A DNA stretch of 64,000 nt, taken from positions 18,942-82,941 of the forward strand of contig CAAGLY010000002.1 in the NCBI GenBank assembly GCA_900770925.1, in the 5' to 3' direction. Source of the DNA: Bacilli bacterium (GTDB taxonomy: Bacteria; Bacillota_I; Bacilli_A; RFN20; CAG-288). Under the pieces are notes generated by a model. It was not told where the DNA came from. It searched no databases and saw only the letters and a program-made list of their open reading frames with translations. A program made the translations under genes and the position numbers. Shown here one piece after another: positions 58,330-63,980 of this stretch (positions within the stretch are counted from its first letter, which is position 1; the number at the start of each line of letters is the position of its first letter).

Positions 58330-58671
58330 CGTTGTTTCCTATCTCTTCTATTATCGTTTTTTCTATGGAAAAAGGAAAGATAGGAAAATGAGAAAATTAT
58401 TCATTGCTGTTTTTTCCTTTTGATCTGGGCACAAAAAACAGAAGCATAAAAAGTCCGGCTTTTACCCGCTTAGAATACCTAGTCAAGAAAAAAATAAAAA
58501 AATATATGGGGATAATAAAAAAGCCATTTCATTTGACTAAAAATACGATGGCCACGATAAAAATCACTATTACTTGGTAGCGCTTACCATTTTTAAAAAT
58601 AGAAATGCCGTCCGGATTTTCGATTTCCTGACCTTATAATGTTCCTGTCATCGCGAGATGACTTTATCGTT

Positions 58672-58742
58672 TCTATTCGTATAATTACCCAGATTGGTGG
58701 GAAGTCTCTACGCTGTGGACCGCAAATCCAGCACTACGAATA
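58672..58742 (+). promoter_or_regulatory. purine riboswitch aptamer, guanine class (C at the specificity position)
   Basis: P1 is UUCGUA/UACGAA. J1-2 is UAUAAU. P2/L2 is CCCA-GAUUGG-UGGG. J2-3 is AAGUCUCUAC. L3 is ACCGCAAAU. J3-1 is ACUA. These match the xpt-type consensus. It lies about 95 nt upstream of the BMP nucleoside ABC operon, and a possible TATAAT sits at about 58635. Confidence 0.75.
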
Positions 58743-58835
58743 AAAAACAATCAATCATCTTTTTTCATTTTTTATTTAAAAAAGAGATTTTCATCCGTTC
58801 TTGGTAATCAAAGGCCAAAAAGGAGAAAATTCAAA

Positions 58836-60179
58836 ATGAAAAAAGGTCTTAAGTTTGCTGGTCTGGCTCTTTTATCTGTTTTAGCAAGGACGGGATGCAC
58901 AAAAGGCGGAGATTCTACTGCTACTGCTGGAAGCGAGAAACCTGCAAGCACGCTTAAAGTCGGCTTAATCTGTGTCGGTGATGAGACTGAGACCTACTCC
59001 AAGGCCCACATTGATGGAATCAAGGCAGCTGCTGCTAAGCTTGGAGCTACTGTCATTTATAAAAACTCTGTTCCAGAAGGAACCCAGGTTGTTGATGCCT
59101 GCACGGAATTAAAAGAAGCTGGCGCACAGCTTATTTTCACCAACTCCTATGGCCATCAGGATTATGCCTGTGCTTTTGCTAAAGATAATCTGGATCTTAC
59201 CATTGTCGCTGATACTGGTGATTATGCTGCTATCTCTGGACTTTCCAATCTCAAGAATGCTTTCACCAACATCTATGAAGCACGTTATGTCTCCGGTGTT
59301 GTCGCTGGAAGGAAACTGAAAGAGCTCAATGCTGCTGGAAAGATTGAAGCTTCTAGCAAGGATGCTGCTGGAAACATCAAGATCGGCTACGTTGGTGCCT
59401 ATAACTATGCTGAAGTCGTTTCTGGATACACTGCTTTCTATCTTGGTGTCAAGGAAGGCTTCGAAGCAGATAATGTTGTCAGGGAAGTCAAATATACCAA
59501 CTCTTGGTATGATCATGATGCTGAAAATACTGCTGCCAAGTATTTAAGGTCCCAAGGCTGCGTCATCATTGGCCAGCATGCTGATTCCACTGGTGCACCG
59601 GAAGCTGTCGAAGAAGAACACAATAAAGGCAAGGAAGTCTATTCTGTTGGATACAACATTGATAGGCTTTCCAAGGCTCCGACCGCTGCATTAACCTCTT
59701 CCACGAATAACTGGGAAAAGTATTATGAGTATGCCATTGGACAGTTCAAGAAAGGCGAATCCATTGCTGTTGACTGGGCAAAAGGATATGCCGATGATGC
59801 TGTTGGTATCACTACTCTTGGTCCGAATGTTGCTGAAGGAACCAAGGCTAAGGTTGATTCCCTTGTCGCTGAAATCAAAGCTGGCACCAAGCATGTCTTT
59901 GATACCTCTAAGTTCACCATCACCGGTGCTAACAAGGACAACATCAACAATGCCGGTGCCACTATTGATGAAGCAACCGGACATGTCACTAAGAACAGGG
60001 TTGACTTCTCTTACAAAGATTGGACCCAGGGCGGAAAGGTCATCTATCAGGGTGAGACTGTCGACACTGTCAAGAAGAGCGGCGATGTCAGCTACGTCGA
60101 AGAATCTGTCAAACGTTCTGCTCCTTACTTTGCTCTTCGTATTGATGGTATTAAGGAAACTGCCGTTGATGCCAAGTAG
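58836..60179 (+). CDS. BMP-family (PnrA/TmpC/Med-like) nucleoside ABC transporter substrate-binding lipoprotein
   Basis: The signal peptide carries a lipobox (LARTGC). The region VGLICVGDETETYSKAHIDG...AQLIFTNSYGHQ is typical of BMP/PnrA. The RBS is AAAGGAGAAAA. Confidence 0.85.
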   Translation: MKKGLKFAGLALLSVLARTGCTKGGDSTATAGSEKPASTLKVGLICVGDETETYSKAHIDGIKAAAAKLGATVIYKNSVPEGTQVVDACTELKEAGAQLIFTNSYGHQDYACAFAKDNLDLTIVADTGDYAAISGLSNLKNAFTNIYEARYVSGVVAGRKLKELNAAGKIEASSKDAAGNIKIGYVGAYNYAEVVSGYTAFYLGVKEGFEADNVVREVKYTNSWYDHDAENTAAKYLRSQGCVIIGQHADSTGAPEAVEEEHNKGKEVYSVGYNIDRLSKAPTAALTSSTNNWEKYYEYAIGQFKKGESIAVDWAKGYADDAVGITTLGPNVAEGTKAKVDSLVAEIKAGTKHVFDTSKFTITGANKDNINNAGATIDEATGHVTKNRVDFSYKDWTQGGKVIYQGETVDTVKKSGDVSYVEESVKRSAPYFALRIDGIKETAVDAK

Positions 60180-60231
60180 TCTTTCCACGAAGGAATTCTA
60201 AAAATCACAGGGAGGGCTATACCCTCCCTGT

Positions 60232-61800
60232 TTGCCGTTTATGAAAGGTATGAAAAATATGGGTGAAACAGCAATTCAGAGGATTTCAATCAGCAAACGC
60301 TTCGGTAAGACAATCGCAAACGAAAACGTGAATCTAAGTATTGAGAAAGGCGAAATCCTTTCTTTATTAGGCGAAAACGGCTCTGGAAAGACAACCTTAA
60401 GGAACATGCTTTCCGGAATCTATTATCCTGACTCGGGTGAAATTTATGTCGATGGAAAGAGAGTGGTGATTTCTTCTCCGAAGGATGCTTTTGATCTTGG
60501 TATTGGAAGGGTTCATCAGCATTTTAAGCTGATCGATGTTTTTACTGCTAGCGAAAACATTGTCCTTGGCTTGAAGAACGAGCCTTTCTTCCTCAGCCGT
60601 AGAAAAATCAATAAGAAAGTCAAAGAGATTTCAAATCGATATGGATTTGATCTTGATCCCAAGAAAAAAGTCTATGAAAGGTCTGTCTCTGAAAAACAGA
60701 TTGTTGAAATCAGGAAACTTCTTTATCGTGGTGTTCATACTTTGATTCTTGACGAGCCGACCGCTGTTCTTACCCCTCAAGAAACAGAACGTTTATTCCA
60801 TATTCTTCGTGAAAGGAAGAAGGATGGAAAAACGATTATCATTATTACCCATAAGCTGAATGAAGTTCTTGAACTATCGGATCGGGTTGCTATTCTACGC
60901 AAGGGAAAACTGGTGGATAGGATTAAGACGAGTGAAGCGAACGAGAGCATCTTAACCGATGCAATGGTCGGCGAGCATGTCAAGCTTGAAATCGAGCGGG
61001 ACGAGATTTCAGCTGAGAAAAAAGAAAAAGTTCTTGAGATTTCTCATCTCTCCTGCACTGCTGAGGATGGAATCCGTTGCTTGAAAGATGTTTCCTTCTC
61101 CGCTTATTCTGGTGAGATTCTTGGTATTGCAGGTGTTTCCGGATCTGGACAGAAAGTCTTACTCGAAGCCATCTGCGGACTTCAACATGCCGATAATGGA
61201 AGCAAGATTCTCTTCACAGACCATCAAAACATTACAGAAGATTTGATTGGAAGGACTCCGAAACAGATTAAGCACAAAGGTGTCCGTTTGGCCTTTGTTC
61301 CAGAAGATCGTTTGGGTATGGGTCTTGTTGGTGATTTCGGAAGGACTGGTAATAGGAGGTTACGCTCCTATGAAGATGGAAAGTCTCCGTTTATTAATTT
61401 CCGGAATCCGAAACATACTGCTGCGGAAGTAAAAGAAGGCCTCAATGTTCTCACTCCTTCATTGGAAACTCCTGTCCGTACTCTCTCTGGCGGAAATGTT
61501 CAAAAGGTTCTTGTCGGACGTGAGATTTCTTCTTCGCCTCGTCTCCTTCTCACTGCATATGCTACCCGTGGACTTGATATTAACACCTCTTATGCAATCT
61601 ACAACATTCTGAATGAACAGAAGAAGAAAGGTGCTGCTGTTATCTATGTCGGTGAAGACCTGGATGTTCTTCTTGCCTTATGCGATCGAATCCTTGTCTT
61701 ATGCGATGGGCAATGCACTGGCATTGTCTCCGCAAGAGACACGGATAAGAGGACGATTGGAAAGAGGATGAGCAGGAATAAGGAGAAGAACAATGACTAA
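60232..61800 (+). CDS. nucleoside/sugar ABC transporter ATP-binding protein with duplicated ATPase domains (NupA/RnsA-like)
   Basis: The N-terminal domain has Walker A (GENGSGKTT) and a signature plus Walker B (LILDEPT). The second domain has GVSGSGQ and LSGGNVQKV. Confidence 0.85.
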   Translation: MPFMKGMKNMGETAIQRISISKRFGKTIANENVNLSIEKGEILSLLGENGSGKTTLRNMLSGIYYPDSGEIYVDGKRVVISSPKDAFDLGIGRVHQHFKLIDVFTASENIVLGLKNEPFFLSRRKINKKVKEISNRYGFDLDPKKKVYERSVSEKQIVEIRKLLYRGVHTLILDEPTAVLTPQETERLFHILRERKKDGKTIIIITHKLNEVLELSDRVAILRKGKLVDRIKTSEANESILTDAMVGEHVKLEIERDEISAEKKEKVLEISHLSCTAEDGIRCLKDVSFSAYSGEILGIAGVSGSGQKVLLEAICGLQHADNGSKILFTDHQNITEDLIGRTPKQIKHKGVRLAFVPEDRLGMGLVGDFGRTGNRRLRSYEDGKSPFINFRNPKHTAAEVKEGLNVLTPSLETPVRTLSGGNVQKVLVGREISSSPRLLLTAYATRGLDINTSYAIYNILNEQKKKGAAVIYVGEDLDVLLALCDRILVLCDGQCTGIVSARDTDKRTIGKRMSRNKEKNND

Positions 61801-63001
61801 AACAAAAAGACCAAAGATTATCCGAGTTGCTAAACGGAGCATTGCTTCTCCGTTTGATAAGATCAAAGCTTATGTTGTCCCTTTGCTTTTCGCCTTAGTT
61901 CTTTCTGTCCTTTTCTTATGGCTGGTAGGACGAAAGAATCCGTTCACAGCTGTTAAGTATATTTTTGAAGGAACCTTCTTCATTACGGATTCTGGCTCCT
62001 TATCTCCGTCTCGTCTCCTTGCTTTTGCTAAGAATGCCATTGTCCTTCTCTGGATTGCACTTGCTTTAGCACCATGCTACAAAATGAGATACTGGAACAT
62101 CGGTGGACAAGGACAAGTTCTCATTGGAGCACTTCTTACGGCTTGCTGCAGGATTTATCTTCCACAGACAAGGCCGAACGCTCTTGCTGTCATGATAGCC
62201 GCTGTTGTTGCTGCCATTGGCGGAGCTATCTGGTCTTATATTCCTGCAATCTTCAAAGCCAAGTGGAATACGAATGAAACCCTCTTCACTCTGAGGAGGA
62301 ACTATCTTGCCATCCTTCTTGTTGAATTATGCACGAATATCTGGCGTGGAAGTAAATCCGCACTAGGGCAAATCAATGTCTCGAATCGCTTTGGATGGTT
62401 CTACCAGATTCCTCATACGGCAATCAAGAACCAGTTCCTTAACAGCAATGTGTTCTTCCCGTTGATTTTTGTAGCTGTTCTTGTTGCTGTTAGGTTTGTC
62501 TATATTAAATATACGAAGCATGGCTATGAAAGGACTGTTGTCGGCGAATCTCTTTCCACGGCTAGATACACTGGTATCAATGTCCGTCATGTCATTCGTC
62601 GCACCGCTGCTTTAAGCGGATTGCTTTGCGGTTTGATCGGATTCTTATCTGTTTCGAACTTTGATCATTCTATCTCCACCTTCTCTGATTTTGGTTATGG
62701 TTTCACGGCTGTTATTGTCTGCTGGCTTAGTAACTTCAATCCTTTCGCTAGGATTGGTTACTCGTCACTTCTTGTCTTTTTGGAAAGAGGGGCAAAGAAC
62801 CTTAGCGATAGTCAGTATGCAGCACCATATCTGAACGAATACTCTACGCAGTTTGTCATTTTCGTCATTATTCTTGCATTCCTTTCTGCTACCTTCTTCC
62901 TCCGCTATCAAGTAACTCTTGATTTGCCAGGAAAGCAGAAACGAAGGAAAGCGAAACTGACAAAAGGATTATTAAATCCAGCAAAGAAGGAGGCTAGGTA
63001 A
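61793..63001 (+). CDS. ABC transporter permease (BPD_transp_2 family, NupB/RnsC-like)
   Basis: It is a polytopic membrane protein that overlaps the ATPase stop. This gene order is typical of BMP systems. Confidence 0.8.
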   Translation: MTKTKRPKIIRVAKRSIASPFDKIKAYVVPLLFALVLSVLFLWLVGRKNPFTAVKYIFEGTFFITDSGSLSPSRLLAFAKNAIVLLWIALALAPCYKMRYWNIGGQGQVLIGALLTACCRIYLPQTRPNALAVMIAAVVAAIGGAIWSYIPAIFKAKWNTNETLFTLRRNYLAILLVELCTNIWRGSKSALGQINVSNRFGWFYQIPHTAIKNQFLNSNVFFPLIFVAVLVAVRFVYIKYTKHGYERTVVGESLSTARYTGINVRHVIRRTAALSGLLCGLIGFLSVSNFDHSISTFSDFGYGFTAVIVCWLSNFNPFARIGYSSLLVFLERGAKNLSDSQYAAPYLNEYSTQFVIFVIILAFLSATFFLRYQVTLDLPGKQKRRKAKLTKGLLNPAKKEAR

Positions 63002-63002
63002 T

Positions 63003-63980
63003 ATGGAAACGTTCATCTCCTGGTTCACGATTGCAATTGTCTACGGAACCATCCTTTCTCTTTCTGCCTGTGGGGAAACCATCAATGAAAAAGCAGGACA
63101 TCTGAATCTTGGTATTCCTGGAATTAGGTATTTAAGTGGCGTTGCTTCTTTTGCACTCACCAGTAGGTATGAAGGAACTGGAAACCCTAACGGATTTGTG
63201 GTTGCTAGGATTGCAATTCTTTCTTCCTTTGCTGTTGGTGCAGTTCTTGGTTTTATCTACTCTCTCTTCGCTGTAACCTTCAAGTGCAATCAGAACGTTC
63301 TTGGCCTAGCAATCGCTTCTTTCGGCGTCGGCTTCGGAAAGTTCATCTCTGTCAGGCTGGGAAATACTCCGAAACTCACAAAGGCCAATCAAGTCTTTAA
63401 CGCGGGCATTCCTTTCTTTAAGGACTTAGGCGTGGCCGGAAAGCTTTTCTTCAACTACGGGTTCAGGACTTATATCACATTATTGATTCTGATTCTGGCA
63501 AGGCTTTTCTTCCGCAAAACAAAAATCGGTCTTAATCTTCGTGCTATTGGCGAATCTCCAGCTACATCCGATGCCGTTGGCTTGAATGTTACAAAATACA
63601 AATATATTGCAACTAGGATCGGGTGCGGACTAGCAGGACTCGGCGGAAGGATCTATGTCAGGCAGTTCTCTACCGGTTCTTGGTCTACGAATAACAACAT
63701 TGAAGCCTTAGGATGGCTTGCTGTTGCCCTCGTTATCTTCGCTTCTTGGAAGCCGGTTCATCTTATCTGGGGTGCTCCTTTATTCGGATTCCTCTTCTGG
63801 GCTTGGACTTATCTTCCTTCTCTTCTTAAAATCTCGGGCTTCAAAGGCAGGAACGAGCTTCTGGAAAGGCTTCCGTATCTTGTTACCATCCTTATTCTTG
63901 TCTTTAATTCGAGGCGCAAAAAGAAAGAAAACCAGCCGCCGGAATCGCTTGGTTTATCCTACTTCCGGGAGGACAGATAG
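63003..63980 (+). CDS. ABC transporter permease (BPD_transp_2 family, NupC/RnsD-like)
   Basis: It is the second permease of the BMP-type system, with 8-10 TM segments. Confidence 0.8.
   Translation: METFISWFTIAIVYGTILSLSACGETINEKAGHLNLGIPGIRYLSGVASFALTSRYEGTGNPNGFVVARIAILSSFAVGAVLGFIYSLFAVTFKCNQNVLGLAIASFGVGFGKFISVRLGNTPKLTKANQVFNAGIPFFKDLGVAGKLFFNYGFRTYITLLILILARLFFRKTKIGLNLRAIGESPATSDAVGLNVTKYKYIATRIGCGLAGLGGRIYVRQFSTGSWSTNNNIEALGWLAVALVIFASWKPVHLIWGAPLFGFLFWAWTYLPSLLKISGFKGRNELLERLPYLVTILILVFNSRRKKKENQPPESLGLSYFREDR

What the first reader, a model, noticed from the sequence alone, without database searches (positions are those of the whole stretch)
58620..58835. Guanine-class purine riboswitch controlling a BMP-family nucleoside ABC importer operon
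A 71-nt element (58672-58742) matches the purine riboswitch consensus at every conserved position. These are P1 UUCGUA/UACGAA, J1-2 UAUAAU, L2 GAUUGG, J2-3 AGUCUCUAC, L3 ACCGCAAAU, and J3-1 ACUA with C at the ligand-specificity position, which indicates the guanine or hypoxanthine class. It sits in the 5' UTR of the four-gene BMP operon comprising the lipoprotein, a double ATPase and two permeases (58836-63980). Downstream U-runs at 58759-58776 suggest a transcriptional OFF switch. The pairing partner for an anti-terminator could not be resolved by eye. The link between guanine sensing and a PnrA-type nucleoside importer is functionally coherent, as a salvage importer would be repressed when purines are plentiful.
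Basis: partly seen in the sequence, partly recalled or inferred. Interest (0 to 1): 0.55.

Follow-up and report, generated by a model that had tools for sequence, protein, structure and literature searches.

The report
Guanine riboswitch before purine ABC importer
This is a genuine guanine-type purine riboswitch in front of a BMP-family ABC uptake operon; it is an ordinary member of a well-known RNA class, but it probably works by hiding the ribosome-binding site rather than by a terminator, and the transporter looks more like a purine-base importer than a nucleoside importer.

Summary
Rfam RF00167 (Purine) matches 58657-58756 (+) at 51.6 bits (gathering score 37, E 7e-6). It is the only Rfam hit above threshold in the window. 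The binding pocket is canonical guanine-I: U22, U47, U51, C74, an 8-nt J2-3 and a 2-nt J3-1. The downstream operon encodes a Bmp binding protein, a double ATPase and two permeases.

The same aptamer precedes BMP binding-protein genes in 15 of 80 related genomes and in 73 of 75 informative metagenomic loci, so the pairing is an inherited unit.

- There is no intrinsic terminator. The best hairpin followed by a U-run has dG -2.3 kcal/mol. Distant relatives have clear ones (dG -8.8 or lower). Instead, the U-rich tract and an anti-SD segment pair with the start codon and SD. The anti-SD segment can alternatively pair with J2-3 of the aptamer. This points to a translational OFF switch, homologous in logic to the antiterminator of the terminator-bearing relatives.
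- The binding protein is much closer to the purine-base binders 3S99 and AtzT (E 1e-40 and 3e-35) than to PnrA (4e-4).

Verdict: a new member of a known kind, of low to moderate interest.

The parts
58635..58640 (+). Probable -10 box TATAAT of the operon promoter (conserved block CCTTATAATG). It predicts a transcription start near 58647.
   Evidence: Conserved in the window, L001, L002, L096, L098, L144, L155 and L166 while the flanking intergenic DNA diverges. The -35 region is poor. The start site is inferred, not shown.
58647..58662 (+). 5'-terminal stem-loop of the leader (GUCAUC GCGA GAUGAC).
   Evidence: The consensus scan flagged it as terminator-like, but it lies just after the conserved -10 box. 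It also covaries: GUCAUC/GAUGAC in the window against GUCACC/GGUGAC in L002. It is read as a leader 5' hairpin.
58674..58742 (+). Purine (guanine-I type) riboswitch aptamer.
- P1: 58674-81 with 58735-42.
- P2: 58685-91 with 58698-703, with A58687 bulged.
- L2: 58692-97.
- J2-3: 58704-11.
- P3: 58712-19 with 58727-32, with a 2-nt insertion at 58716-17.
- L3: 58720-26.
- J3-1: 58733-34.
- Pocket: U22 = 58682, U47 = 58705, U51 = 58709, C74 = 58734.
   Evidence: RF00167 at 51.6 bits, gathering score 37. P1, P2 and P3 are 95-100% paired in 11 relatives with compensatory changes. The sequence was read directly.
58738..58747 (+). Distal part of the P1 3' strand plus its A-rich tail (GAAUAAAAAA). It is the 5' arm of the alternative 'tail helix'.
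   Evidence: It is complementary to 58768-58777. In the window it is weak (-5.4 kcal/mol, z = -0.8). Across the family, tail and partner covary, for example AAUCAA/UUGAUU, AAUCUA/UAGAUU and UAAGAACAA/UUGUUCUUA.
58757..58771 (+). Anti-start segment (AUCUUUUUUCAUUUU), complementary to the start-codon region 58833-58847.
   Evidence: A 13-nt exact complement, 58759-71 with 58833-45. A match this long arose in 8 of 2000 dinucleotide shuffles. It is a 15-bp helix in the MFE fold and 84% paired in 11 relatives.
58768..58777 (+). 3' arm of the tail helix (UUUUUUAUUU). It overlaps the anti-start segment by 4 nt.
58783..58808 (+). Switching segment. AGAGAUUUUC (58783-92) pairs with P2-3'/J2-3 (58700-09). 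The stretch 58786-96 is also the anti-SD. The stretch 58795-58808 can extend the pairing into P2/J1-2 (58684-97).
   Evidence: It is the best partner of the aptamer segment GGUGGGAAGUCUCUAC, at -15.2 kcal/mol and z = -3.7. It is part of the unconstrained MFE of the transcript truncated at 58810. It is 88.7% paired in 11 relatives. The motif AGAGAUUUyC is conserved.
58811..58816 (+). 5' arm (AAGGCC) of a small hairpin that brackets the SD and AUG. Its partner is GGUCUU, 58845-58850 (codons 4-5).
   Evidence: RNAalifold calls it in the consensus. The outer pair switches between A-U, C-G and G-C.
58822..58825 (+). Shine-Dalgarno core GGAG (within AAAGGAGAAAA), 10 nt before the ATG.
   Evidence: Read directly. 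It pairs with 58792-96 in the MFE. P(unpaired) is 0.10 with the aptamer folded and 0.36 in the alternative fold.
58836..60179 (+). BMP-family substrate-binding lipoprotein gene (447 aa). The start AUGAAAAAAGGUCUU is part of the regulatory pairing.
   Evidence: Pfam PF02608, 4.9e-27. The closest solved relatives are 3S99 and AtzT, both purine-base binders. The MKKGL start is conserved at the nucleotide level.
60207..60231 (+). GC-rich 11-bp intercistronic hairpin between the SBP and ATPase genes.
   Evidence: Its function was not tested.
60232..61800 (+). ABC ATPase with two nucleotide-binding domains. The true start is probably an ATG a few codons downstream.
   Evidence: PF00005, two stretches.
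61793..63001 (+). Permease 1 (BPD_transp_2).
63003..63980 (+). Permease 2 (BPD_transp_2).

Best explanation
The leader RNA of the BMP-type ABC importer operon (about 58647-58835) carries a guanine-I class purine riboswitch (aptamer 58674-58742). It most likely binds guanine or hypoxanthine through C74 and represses the operon when purines are plentiful.

The expression platform acts on translation initiation, not through an intrinsic terminator.

Without ligand:
- The nascent RNA refolds, and the switching segment 58783-58808 invades P2/J2-3 (58684-58709).
- The P1 3' strand and its tail (58738-47) pair with 58768-77.
- This ties up the anti-SD and part of the anti-start segment. The SD (58822-25) and AUG (58836) are left in the loop of a small hairpin (58811-16 with 58845-50) and are accessible.

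With ligand:
- J2-3 and P1 are locked in the aptamer.
- The anti-SD (58786-96) and anti-start (58757-71) segments are free to form a long nested helix with 58822-58847. This helix buries the SD and the start codon.

Shown: the aptamer identity, the gene context, the absence of a terminator, the complementarities and their conservation.
Inferred: the ligand, the direction of the switch and the kinetic coupling.

The transporter itself more likely imports purine bases (guanine, adenine, hypoxanthine) than nucleosides.

Sub-confidences: a real guanine-class riboswitch controlling this operon, about 0.9. Translational RBS masking as the main mode, about 0.6. Purine base as the cargo, about 0.6.
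For: Aptamer:
- RF00167 at 51.6 bits, gathering score 37.
- Canonical U22, U47, U51, C74, 8-nt J2-3 and 2-nt J3-1, checked against the definitions of the variant classes.
- P1, P2 and P3 are 95-100% paired with compensatory changes in 11 relatives.

Context:
- RF00167 lies upstream of SBP homologues in 15 of 80 genome loci.
- An SBP gene follows the same aptamer signature in 73 of 75 informative metagenomic loci.

No terminator:
- The scan finds none between the aptamer and the ATG.
- The best hairpin plus U-run is -2.3 kcal/mol, against -8.8 kcal/mol or lower in 18 distant relatives.

Sequestor:
- The full-length MFE pairs 58757-71 with 58833-47 and 58786-96 with 58822-31. The leader's z-score is -2.57.
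- The 13-nt exact anti-start match has P = 0.004.
- The fold is 87% paired in relatives, against 46-55% in slid controls.

Alternative fold:
- It is the unconstrained MFE (-30.2 kcal/mol) of the transcript ending at 58810, and 8 kcal/mol better than the fold with P1 forced.
- The aptamer segment pairs with the switching segment at -15.2 kcal/mol, z = -3.7. That site lies inside the stretch that pairs with the RBS.
- It is 81.6% paired in relatives, against 43-56% in slid controls.
- The same aptamer segment pairs with the 5' arm of the terminator in the terminator-class relatives.
- J2-3 pairs to the platform in the MFE of 38 of 50 terminator-less and 15 of 18 terminator-class leaders.
- The tail helix covaries across the family.

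Accessibility: RBS P(unpaired) is 0.14 with the aptamer folded and 0.55 in the alternative fold. For the AUG it is 0.01 and 0.50.

Cargo:
- 3S99 at 1e-40 and AtzT at 2.7e-35, against PnrA at 4e-4.
- AtzT binds guanine with a KD of about 110 nM through Tyr45, Ser97, Glu165 and Trp194 (PMC6834077). These align with Y54, S104, E193 and W224 in the window protein, which are invariant in the subfamily alignment.
- Some relatives have an operon of riboswitch, PRT gene and SBP gene.
Against: - No experiment of any kind supports this. Ligand, direction and mode are all inferred.
- In equilibrium folding the sequestor helix is present whether or not P1 forms. With the P1 5' strand blocked, the MFE is -35.3 kcal/mol and keeps the sequestor. 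The forced alternative fold reaches only -33.8, and aptamer plus sequestor reaches -40.6. The switch would therefore need co-transcriptional, kinetic control or help from ribosome binding, and this was not tested.
- The platform is A/U-rich and of low complexity, so some complementarity is cheap. The tail helix in the window has z = -0.8 and the RBS duplex z = -2.0.
- True compensatory changes in the platform helices are few, because the aptamer side is almost invariant. The 11 aligned leaders represent only about 6 lineages.
- RNAalifold's own consensus recovers only the aptamer and the small RBS-bracketing hairpin.
- The aptamer's shortened L2, P2 bulge and P3 insertion could affect affinity.
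- The cargo inference rests on roughly 30%-identity homology.
Confidence: 0.6

Rival explanations
1. Transcriptional OFF switch. Ligand binding lets a weak AU-rich hairpin (58758-65 with 58778-85) plus the following U's, or the U-tract itself, terminate or pause RNA polymerase before the SBP gene.
For: - U-runs lie at 58759-58776, and an 8-nt complement UCUUUUUU/AAAAAAGA is followed by UUUU.
- Distant relatives of the same riboswitch-BMP unit clearly use intrinsic terminators.
- Most Bacillota purine riboswitches are transcriptional (general knowledge; PMC2018637 abstract).
Against: - The best hairpin plus U-run is -2.3 kcal/mol with no G-C-rich stem, against -8.8 to -11.1 kcal/mol in the terminator-class relatives.
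- The consensus scan finds no terminator between 58743 and 58835.
- The closest relatives (L002, L004, L003, L010) have no candidate at all.
- The U-tract is better explained as an anti-start element.
Confidence: 0.1
2. Translational control, but simpler than proposed. The small conserved hairpin 58811-16 with 58845-50, and/or the local anti-SD pairing, is the functional element. The long-range anti-start helix and the extended invasion of P2 are chance products of A/U-rich sequence. Repression might also be reinforced secondarily by Rho or by mRNA decay once translation is blocked.
For: - RNAalifold's consensus keeps only the aptamer and this hairpin, with covariation at its outer pair.
- The z-scores of the individual platform duplexes are modest.
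- The sequestor forms independently of the aptamer state at equilibrium.
Against: - The 13-nt exact anti-start match is rare in shuffles (P = 0.004).
- Anti-start complementarity recurs in relatives with different sequences.
- The switching segment's dual complementarity to J2-3 and to the SD is conserved. It is homologous to the antiterminator of terminator-class relatives.
Confidence: 0.2
3. The aptamer senses something other than guanine or hypoxanthine, for example guanosine or 2'-deoxyguanosine, xanthine or 8-oxoguanine, as the known guanine-riboswitch variants do. On this reading its unusual periphery (6-nt L2, bulged P2, P3 insertion) retunes the specificity.
For: - Natural variants of this fold with altered specificity exist (PMC9295807 and PMC10556655).
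- The periphery here deviates from the consensus, and does so lineage-wide.
- A BMP transporter could in principle carry nucleosides.
Against: - None of the defining changes of those variants is present. There is no U51G and no insertion in J2-3 or J3-1. U47 is present and C74 is present.
- 2'-dG-III is an ON switch tied exclusively to nucleoside hydrolase genes.
- The GG of L2 and the CC of L3 needed for loop-loop pairing are retained.
Confidence: 0.07
4. The element is a decayed or non-functional relic, or a chance match.
For: The aptamer's folding energy alone is not exceptional (z = -1.05).
Against: - It scores 51.6 bits, above the gathering score.
- The aptamer is identical in genomes whose SBP is only 82% identical, and it is conserved in position in dozens of loci down to 33% SBP identity.
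- There are compensatory changes in P1, P2 and P3.
Confidence: 0.02

Closest known systems
Guanine-I riboswitch, Rfam RF00167 (prototype: B. subtilis xpt-pbuX)
   Same: - A three-way junction of P1, P2 and P3.
- J1-2 is UAUAAU and J2-3 is GUNUCUAC, with U47 and U51.
- J3-1 is AC, with C74.
- The GG/CC loop-loop pairs are present.
- It sits in the leader of a purine salvage or uptake operon, with presumed OFF logic.
- It scores above the curated threshold.
   Different: - L2 is 6 nt instead of 7. P2 has a bulged A and P3 a 2-nt insertion.
- There is no intrinsic terminator. The platform appears to mask the SD and start codon.
- The downstream gene is an ABC binding protein, not xpt or a permease.
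Terminator-bearing relatives of the same riboswitch-BMP unit (e.g. L081, L092, L106, L112 from metagenomes)
   Same: - The same P1 sequence (UUCGUA/UACGAA), the same short P2-L2 module and the same downstream gene family.
- The same alternative-fold logic. J2-3 (GUCUCUAC) pairs with a downstream GUAGAG-type segment, and the P1 tail pairs with a downstream partner.
   Different: There, the segment that pairs with J2-3 is the 5' arm of a GC-rich terminator, GGCUUCC...GGAAGCU followed by U's, at about -9 kcal/mol. In the window it is an anti-SD sequence. L110 (UUAGAGGCUUUCUUUUCC) looks intermediate.
Translationally acting purine riboswitches (e.g. the Vibrio vulnificus add adenine riboswitch; from my own knowledge, not checked here)
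   Same: A purine aptamer is coupled to SD or start-codon accessibility rather than to a terminator.
   Different: - add is an adenine-sensing (U74) ON switch in a proteobacterium.
- This one is C74, presumably an OFF switch, in a Bacilli MAG.
- It uses two sequestering segments (anti-SD and anti-start) plus an RBS-bracketing hairpin.
Guanine-riboswitch variant classes: adenine, 2'-dG-I/II/III, xanthine-II, guanine-II and 8-oxoG (PMC9295807, PMC10556655)
   Same: The same three-stem scaffold.
   Different: None of their defining pocket changes is present:
- C74U.
- U51G with insertions in J2-3 and J3-1.
- A 1-nt J2-3 insertion.
- Deletion of U47.
- Association with a nucleoside hydrolase gene as an ON switch.
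Purine-base-binding BMP proteins: 3S99 (Brucella, adenine modelled) and AtzT (6PI5, guanine KD about 110 nM)
   Same: - They are the best solved-structure matches to the SBP subfamily (1e-40 and 2.7e-35).
- The stacking and hydrogen-bonding residues Tyr45, Ser97, Glu165 and Trp194 of AtzT align with Y54, S104, E193 and W224. The QHxDS motif is shared with 3S99.
   Different: - Identity is only about 30%.
- The window protein is a Gram-positive-type lipoprotein of 447 aa. It has an internal insertion (about 160-180) and a C-terminal extension of about 100 aa.
- Its ligand has not been tested.
NupNOPQ (B. subtilis guanosine ABC importer) and PnrA/TmpC nucleoside-binding BMP proteins
   Same: The same Pfam family (PF02608) and the same operon architecture of SBP, double ATPase and two permeases. 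All have a purine-salvage role.
   Different: - PnrA/TmpC matches the subfamily profile only at 4e-4, and the pneumococcal PnrA-type lipoproteins at about 1e-2.
- I found no paper in the searchable library linking NupNOPQ or BMP operons to a purine riboswitch.

Membership tests
Purine riboswitch RF00167 (guanine-I) | A covariance-model score at or above Rfam's gathering score. | tested here: met
   51.6 bits against 37, with the full model 1-102 and E = 7.4e-6.
Purine riboswitch RF00167 (guanine-I) | A three-way junction of P1, P2 and P3 supported by covariation. | tested here: met
   The MFE of 58670-58746 gives the three helices. In 11 relatives P1 is 100% paired, P2 95.5% and P3 100%, each with a pair changed on both sides.
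Purine riboswitch RF00167 (guanine-I) | Conserved junction nucleotides that contact the ligand: U22, U47 and U51, with an 8-nt J2-3. | tested here: met
   U58682, U58705 and U58709 are present. J2-3 is GUCUCUAC. Only the variable position 48 differs from xpt (definitions from PMC9295807 and PMC10556655).
Purine riboswitch RF00167 (guanine-I) | C at position 74, giving a Watson-Crick pair to guanine or hypoxanthine. U74 would indicate adenine. | tested here: met
   C58734 lies in a 2-nt J3-1 (AC). The rule is stated in PMC11477304 and PMC10556655.
Purine riboswitch RF00167 (guanine-I) | An L2-L3 loop-loop tertiary interaction between 7-nt loops, with GG of L2 pairing with CC of L3. | tested here: inconclusive
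   The GG (58696-97) and CC (58720-21) are present. However, L2 has 6 nt, P2 a bulged A and P3 a 2-nt insertion. This is a lineage-wide trait: 68 of 73 unique aptamers have a shortened P2-L2 module. Tertiary folding is not testable here.
Purine riboswitch RF00167 (guanine-I) | Selective, high-affinity binding of guanine or hypoxanthine, with a ligand-dependent structural change. | not testable with these tools
   It needs in-line probing, ITC or a reporter assay.
Xanthine-II / guanine-II variants | U51G and/or insertions in J2-3 (1-2 nt) and in J3-1. | tested here: not met
   J2-3 has 8 nt, U51 is present and J3-1 has 2 nt (definitions).
8-oxoguanine riboswitch | Deletion of U47, and association with an 8-oxoG deaminase gene. 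| tested here: not met
   U47 is present, and the downstream gene is a BMP SBP.
2'-dG-III (guanine-nucleoside) riboswitch | An altered J2-3, an exclusive association with purine nucleoside hydrolase genes, and an ON switch with a terminator. | tested here: not met
   J2-3 is canonical, the gene is an ABC importer and there is no terminator.
Intrinsic-terminator expression platform | A stable G+C-rich hairpin immediately followed by a U-run, between the aptamer and the start codon. | tested here: not met
   The scan finds none. The best candidate is -2.3 kcal/mol, against -8.8 kcal/mol or lower in 18 relatives that do have one.
SD/start-sequestering (translational) expression platform | A leader segment complementary to the SD or AUG that can alternatively pair with part of the aptamer. 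| tested here: met
   - The anti-SD 58786-96 pairs with the SD, and the anti-start 58757-71 pairs with the AUG region.
- The same segment pairs with J2-3 at -15.2 kcal/mol, z = -3.7.
- The alternative fold is the MFE of the pre-RBS transcript.
- Accessibility is 0.14 with the aptamer folded and 0.55 in the alternative fold.
- All of this is computational.
SD/start-sequestering (translational) expression platform | A ligand-dependent change in ribosome binding or translation. | not testable with these tools
   It needs toeprinting or translational fusions. Equilibrium folding does not by itself couple the sequestor to P1.
BMP / PnrA-like ABC substrate-binding proteins (PF02608) | A Pfam Bmp domain above threshold, in an operon with a double ATPase and two BPD_transp_2 permeases. 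| tested here: met
   PF02608 at 95.1 bits against a cutoff of 24.1. The ATPase has two ABC_tran stretches, and there are two permeases.
BMP / PnrA-like ABC substrate-binding proteins (PF02608) | A lipoprotein signal peptide with a lipobox cysteine. | tested here: inconclusive
   The N-terminus is MKKGLKFAGLALLSVLARTGC. Cys21 is invariant in the subfamily alignment, but the -3 to -1 residues (R-T-G) are not a textbook lipobox. No predictor was run.
Purine-base-binding BMP subfamily (3S99 / AtzT) | It is closer to the base binders than to the nucleoside binders, and the base-contact residues are conserved. | tested here: met
   - The profile hits 3S99 at 1e-40 and AtzT at 2.7e-35. PnrA is at 4e-4 and BmpA at 5e-6.
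- Y54, S104, E193 and W224 align with AtzT Tyr45, Ser97, Glu165 and Trp194.
- Actual ligand binding was not tested.

The most novel reading that the evidence does not exclude
This is a distinct, vertically inherited lineage of guanine riboswitches dedicated to BMP-type purine ABC importers. Its marks are a fixed P1 sequence, a shortened L2 and a bulged P2. Within one gene family the expression platform has been rewired from an intrinsic terminator to a dual SD plus start-codon sequestor, while keeping the same J2-3-invading switching helix. As a result, the first five codons of the binding-protein gene (MKKGL, AUGAAAAAAGGUCUU) are constrained by RNA pairing rather than by protein function. This would be a clean natural series for studying how riboswitch platforms change mode. 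It would also point to an uncharacterised Gram-positive guanine or purine-base ABC importer.
Probability: 0.45. Interest if true: 0.4.

Novelty: new member of a known kind. Interest (0 to 1): 0.25.

Why it matters
It gives a confident functional annotation for an otherwise generic 'BMP family ABC transporter' operon in an uncultured Bacilli lineage. The operon is a purine uptake system, probably for purine bases, that is feedback-repressed by guanine or hypoxanthine.

For riboswitch biology, the aptamer itself is textbook. The family of leaders collected here is more useful. About 70 distinct sequences show the same aptamer and the same switching helix coupled either to a terminator or to RBS masking. 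That is a convenient comparative set for studying how platforms evolve.

Nothing here challenges current understanding.

Tried and rejected
- **Intrinsic terminator.** I looked for one with the consensus scan and with my own hairpin-plus-U-run detector. The first version was too strict about the spacer and missed the obvious terminators of distant relatives. The corrected version finds them and finds none in the window clade.
- **Hairpin at 58647-58662.** The scan flagged it as terminator-like. I rejected that reading because the hairpin follows the conserved -10 box and covaries as a leader 5' stem.
- **Promoter-like hit at 58658-58685** (ATGACT-16-TATAAT). This is only the aptamer's J1-2 UAUAAU.
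- **Variant ligand classes** (adenine, xanthine-II, guanine-II, 2'-dG and 8-oxoG). I rejected these on their defining nucleotides.
- **MAFFT alignment of the variable platform.** It misregistered the P1-tail helix, giving 74.5% paired. I re-tested that helix per sequence with duplexfold.
- **RBS hairpin.** My first coordinates were off by one and were corrected.
- **Literature.** Five searches for a published link between purine riboswitches and BMP or NupN operons found nothing explicit. I believe such associations are listed in older comparative surveys, but I could not verify that.
- **NCBIfam.** It gave no name for the SBP. The ATPase and permeases gave only sub-threshold 'putative B6 ABC transporter' hits, which I did not use.
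- **Not run.** Structure prediction and the large protein-representative search would not have changed the verdict.
Full report

Yes. A scan of the whole window, both strands, against all 4227 Rfam families gives exactly one match above a gathering score. It is RF00167 (Purine riboswitch aptamer) at 58657-58756 on the + strand, with the full-length model, at 51.6 bits against a threshold of 37, E = 7.4e-6.

The sequence shows these elements:
- P1 is 8 bp, UAUUCGUA 58674-81 with UACGAAUA 58735-42.
- J1-2 is UAUAAU.
- P2 is 58685-91 with 58698-703, and L2 is GAUUGG.
- J2-3 is GUCUCUAC, 58704-11.
- P3 is 58712-19 with 58727-32, and L3 is CCGCAAA.
- J3-1 is A58733 and C58734.

In xpt numbering the ligand-contacting nucleotides are U22 (58682), U47 (58705), U51 (58709) and C74 (58734).

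The claim that 'every conserved position' matches is slightly generous. L2 lacks one nucleotide. P2 has a bulged A (58687). P3 has a 2-nt insertion (58716-17). Positions 48 and 63 are C. The aptamer's folding energy alone is unremarkable (z = -1.05). The evidence lies in the covariance score and the conservation described below.

**2. Gene context**

The ORFs downstream are a Bmp-domain binding protein (58836-60179, PF02608), an ATPase with two ABC domains (60232-61800) and two BPD_transp_2 permeases (61793-63001 and 63003-63980). Upstream genes run the other way: a small S4-domain protein and a TilS-like PP-loop protein. So 58330-58835 is a divergent intergenic region.

A block CCTTATAATG (-10 box at 58635-40) is conserved in the closest relatives, while the surrounding DNA diverges. 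It is followed by a hairpin at 58647-62 that covaries: GUCAUC/GAUGAC in the window against GUCACC/GGUGAC in L002. I read this as the promoter and a 5'-terminal leader stem. The terminator-like flag the scan gave this hairpin is therefore rejected.

**3. Relatives**

The binding protein has thousands of homologues. The closest genomes are MAGs labelled 'Bacillales (now Caryophanales) bacterium UBA4682' (93% identity) and UBA784 (82%).

Among 80 genome loci encoding SBP homologues (48-93% identity), RF00167 lies just upstream of the SBP gene in 15. These are L001-L010, L014-L016, L025 and L060. The Clostridia-type loci lack it.

I scanned metagenomes with a pattern specific to this aptamer's P1, J2-3 and J3-1. 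It returned 88 stretches. Thirteen of them were too short downstream to judge. Of the other 75, 73 have a BMP SBP homologue (33-97% identity) right after the aptamer. The two exceptions are L114, which has a xanthine/uracil-family permease, and L128.

The riboswitch and the BMP operon are therefore an inherited unit. Across 11 aligned relatives, P1, P2 and P3 are 95-100% paired, and each helix has at least one pair changed on both sides.

The shortened P2-L2 module is a lineage trait. Sixty-eight of 73 unique aptamers have 18-20 nt where xpt has 21.

**4. Which ligand class?**

The published variants of this fold are defined by changes in the pocket:
- C74U for adenine.
- U51G plus insertions in J2-3 and J3-1 for xanthine-II.
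- A 1-nt J2-3 insertion for guanine-II.
- An altered J2-3, a nucleoside-hydrolase gene and ON logic for 2'-dG-III.
- Deletion of U47 for 8-oxoG.

These definitions come from PMC9295807 and PMC10556655. None of the changes is present here, so the aptamer is of the guanine-I type. Actual binding cannot be tested with these tools.

**5. Expression platform: not a terminator**

The consensus scan finds no terminator between the aptamer and the ATG. I scanned 68 unique leaders with my own hairpin-plus-U-run detector, and the result is bimodal.
- Eighteen leaders, all with distant SBPs (33-40% identity), have a hairpin of -8.8 to -11.1 kcal/mol followed by a U-run (GGCUUCC...GGAAGCU, then CAUUUUUAUU).
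- The window and its close relatives reach only -0.4 to -2.3 kcal/mol, or have no candidate at all.

**6. What the platform does instead**

The full-length leader folds into the aptamer plus a long nested helix.
- 58757-71 (AUCUUUUUUCAUUUU) pairs with 58833-47, which contains the AUG.
- 58786-96 pairs with 58822-31, which contains the SD (GGAG).

The 201-nt leader has a z-score of -2.57. The core is a 13-nt exact complement, CUUUUUUCAUUUU with AAAAUGAAAAAAG. Despite the A/U-rich composition, a match this long arose in only 8 of 2000 dinucleotide shuffles.

A competing fold appears without any constraint as the MFE (-30.2 kcal/mol) of the transcript truncated at 58810. It has these features:
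- 58783-58808 invades 58684-58709 (P2 plus J2-3).
- 58738-47 (the P1 3' strand and its tail) pairs with 58768-77.
- P3 is kept.
- With P1 forced, the same RNA reaches only -22.2 kcal/mol.

The aptamer segment GGUGGGAAGUCUCUAC has its best partner in the leader at AAGAGAUUUUCAUCCG (58782-97), at -15.2 kcal/mol and z = -3.7. That site lies inside the stretch that best pairs with the RBS. One segment can therefore pair either with J2-3 or with the SD.

Computed accessibility of the RBS rises from 0.14 with the aptamer folded to 0.55 in the alternative fold. For the AUG it rises from 0.01 to 0.50, and for the SD from 0.10 to 0.36.

**7. Comparative support**

- In the terminator-class relatives, the same aptamer segment pairs best with (A/G)GUAGAGGCUUCCA. 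This is the 5' arm of the terminator, so it acts as a classical antiterminator (z = -2 to -4.7). The window's switching helix is thus homologous in logic, with the terminator arm replaced by an anti-SD. L110 (UUAGAGGCUUUCUUUUCC) looks intermediate.
- In pre-RBS transcripts, at least 5 of 7 J2-3 nucleotides pair to the platform in the MFE of 38 of 50 terminator-less leaders and 15 of 18 terminator-class leaders.
- On an alignment of 11 window-type leaders, the aptamer-plus-sequestor fold is 87% paired, against 46-55% for slid partners. The alternative fold is 81.6% paired, against 43-56%. Its main helix is 88.7% paired.
- The P1-tail helix is weak in the window (-5.4 kcal/mol, z = -0.8). Across the family, tail and partner change together. 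Examples are AAAAAA/UUUUUU, AAUCAA/UUGAUU, AAUCUU/AAGAUU, AAUCUA/UAGAUU, UAAGAACAA/UUGUUCUUA and UAAAAUCA/UGAUUUUA.
- RNAalifold, run independently, recovers the aptamer and one platform helix. That helix is a small hairpin, 58811-16 (AAGGCC) with 58845-50 (GGUCUU), which brackets the SD and AUG. Its outer pair switches between A-U, C-G and G-C. This explains why the start AUGAAAAAAGGUCU (MKKGL) is conserved at the nucleotide level among SBPs that are only 40-55% identical.

**8. Weaknesses**

- Everything about mechanism is computational.
- At equilibrium the sequestor helix is in the MFE whether or not P1 can form. The energies are -35.3 kcal/mol with the P1 5' strand blocked, -33.8 for the forced alternative fold and -40.6 for aptamer plus sequestor. 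Ligand dependence would therefore need co-transcriptional trapping or competition with ribosomes.
- The platform is of low complexity, and several individual z-scores are modest.
- Real compensatory changes are few, because the aptamer side barely varies.
- The 11 aligned leaders represent about six lineages.
- I therefore give about 0.9 to 'a real guanine-class riboswitch regulating this operon' and about 0.6 to 'mainly translational RBS masking, OFF with ligand'.

**9. What does the transporter carry?**

By sequence, the SBP's closest solved relatives are 3S99 and AtzT.
- 3S99 is a Brucella BMP lipoprotein deposited with adenine in the binding site.
- AtzT co-purified with guanine, with a KD of about 110 nM (PMC6834077).

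With a profile of the subfamily, 3S99 scores 1e-40 and AtzT 2.7e-35. BmpA scores 5e-6, TmpC/PnrA 4e-4 and the pneumococcal PnrA-type lipoproteins about 1e-2.

AtzT's ligand contacts Tyr45, Ser97, Glu165 and Trp194 align with Y54, S104, E193 and W224. These four residues are invariant in the subfamily alignment. AtzT's Asn218 and Asn220 are replaced by H248 and D250, as in the QHxDS motif of 3S99.

In L147, L149 and L156 a phosphoribosyltransferase gene sits between the riboswitch and the SBP gene. That arrangement mirrors xpt-pbuX, and the enzyme uses free bases. A purine-base importer is therefore the better guess (about 0.6), but this is homology-based inference only.

**10. Comparison with what is known, and novelty**

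The aptamer is a member of a thoroughly studied class. Both transcriptional and translational platforms are known for purine riboswitches, and regulation of purine uptake genes is their normal role. I found no paper in the searchable library that explicitly links purine riboswitches to BMP or NupN-type ABC operons. The association is nonetheless so common in public genomes and metagenomes that it cannot be considered unknown to the databases.

I classify it as a new member of a known kind. The mildly interesting extras are the lineage-specific aptamer periphery, the apparent switch from terminator to sequestor within one family, and the RNA-level constraint on the first codons of the gene.

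Interest is 0.25.

Noticed in passing
window 58574-58589: TTGGTAGCGCTTACCA is a near-palindromic motif resembling a cre or LacI-type operator (L096 has TTGATAGCGCTTTCTA). It lies about 50 nt upstream of the -10 box and is conserved in L001, L002, L096, L098, L144 and L155, although the rest of the intergenic region diverges. It may be a second, protein-mediated layer of control such as catabolite repression. In the window it can also fold as a small hairpin followed by TTTTT.
   Followed up: partly
window 60207-60231: A perfect 11-bp, GC-rich hairpin (ACAGGGAGGG CTATA CCCTCCCTGT) lies between the SBP stop codon (60179) and the ATPase gene. It is probably an intercistronic stabiliser or partial terminator that gives an excess of binding protein. 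It also suggests that the ATPase starts at an ATG just downstream (60242 onward) rather than at the TTG at 60232.
   Followed up: partly
window 58836-58850 and the corresponding positions in L001-L010, L090 and L110: The first five codons, AUGAAAAAAGGUCUU (MKKGL), are conserved at the nucleotide level among binding proteins only 40-55% identical overall. GGUCUU pairs with AAGGCC/AGACC upstream of the SD.
   Followed up: yes
L147, L149 and L156 (about 100-680 nt after the aptamer); L114: In three metagenomic loci a phosphoribosyltransferase (Xpt-like, PF00156) gene sits between the same riboswitch and the BMP SBP gene. In L114 the same aptamer signature precedes a xanthine/uracil-family permease (PF00860).
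   Followed up: yes
L051 450-608, L053 1304-1398, L056 437-568 and L068 1312-1406: THF riboswitches (RF01831, 45-84 bits) lie 1-2 kb upstream of the BMP SBP genes in Faecalibacterium, Gemmiger and Cibiobacter-type genomes. In L053 the riboswitch precedes a 189-aa membrane-protein ORF (1533-2102), and the SBP gene follows at 2501. Whether the two units are co-transcribed is unknown.
   Followed up: partly
window 58836-60179 (protein residues about 160-180 and 342-447): The binding protein is about 100 aa longer than the solved BMP proteins. It has an internal insertion and a C-terminal extension beyond the Pfam Bmp domain (matched residues 53-341). No NCBIfam model names it.
   Followed up: no
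window 58658-58685: The promoter scan's best hit (ATGACT-16-TATAAT, 10 of 12 matches) is only the aptamer's J1-2 UAUAAU. Purine riboswitches will regularly produce false -10 boxes in this way.
   Followed up: yes
whole window 1-64000: Apart from the purine riboswitch, no Rfam family reaches its gathering score in 64 kb. There is no tRNA, no rRNA and no other riboswitch.
   Followed up: no
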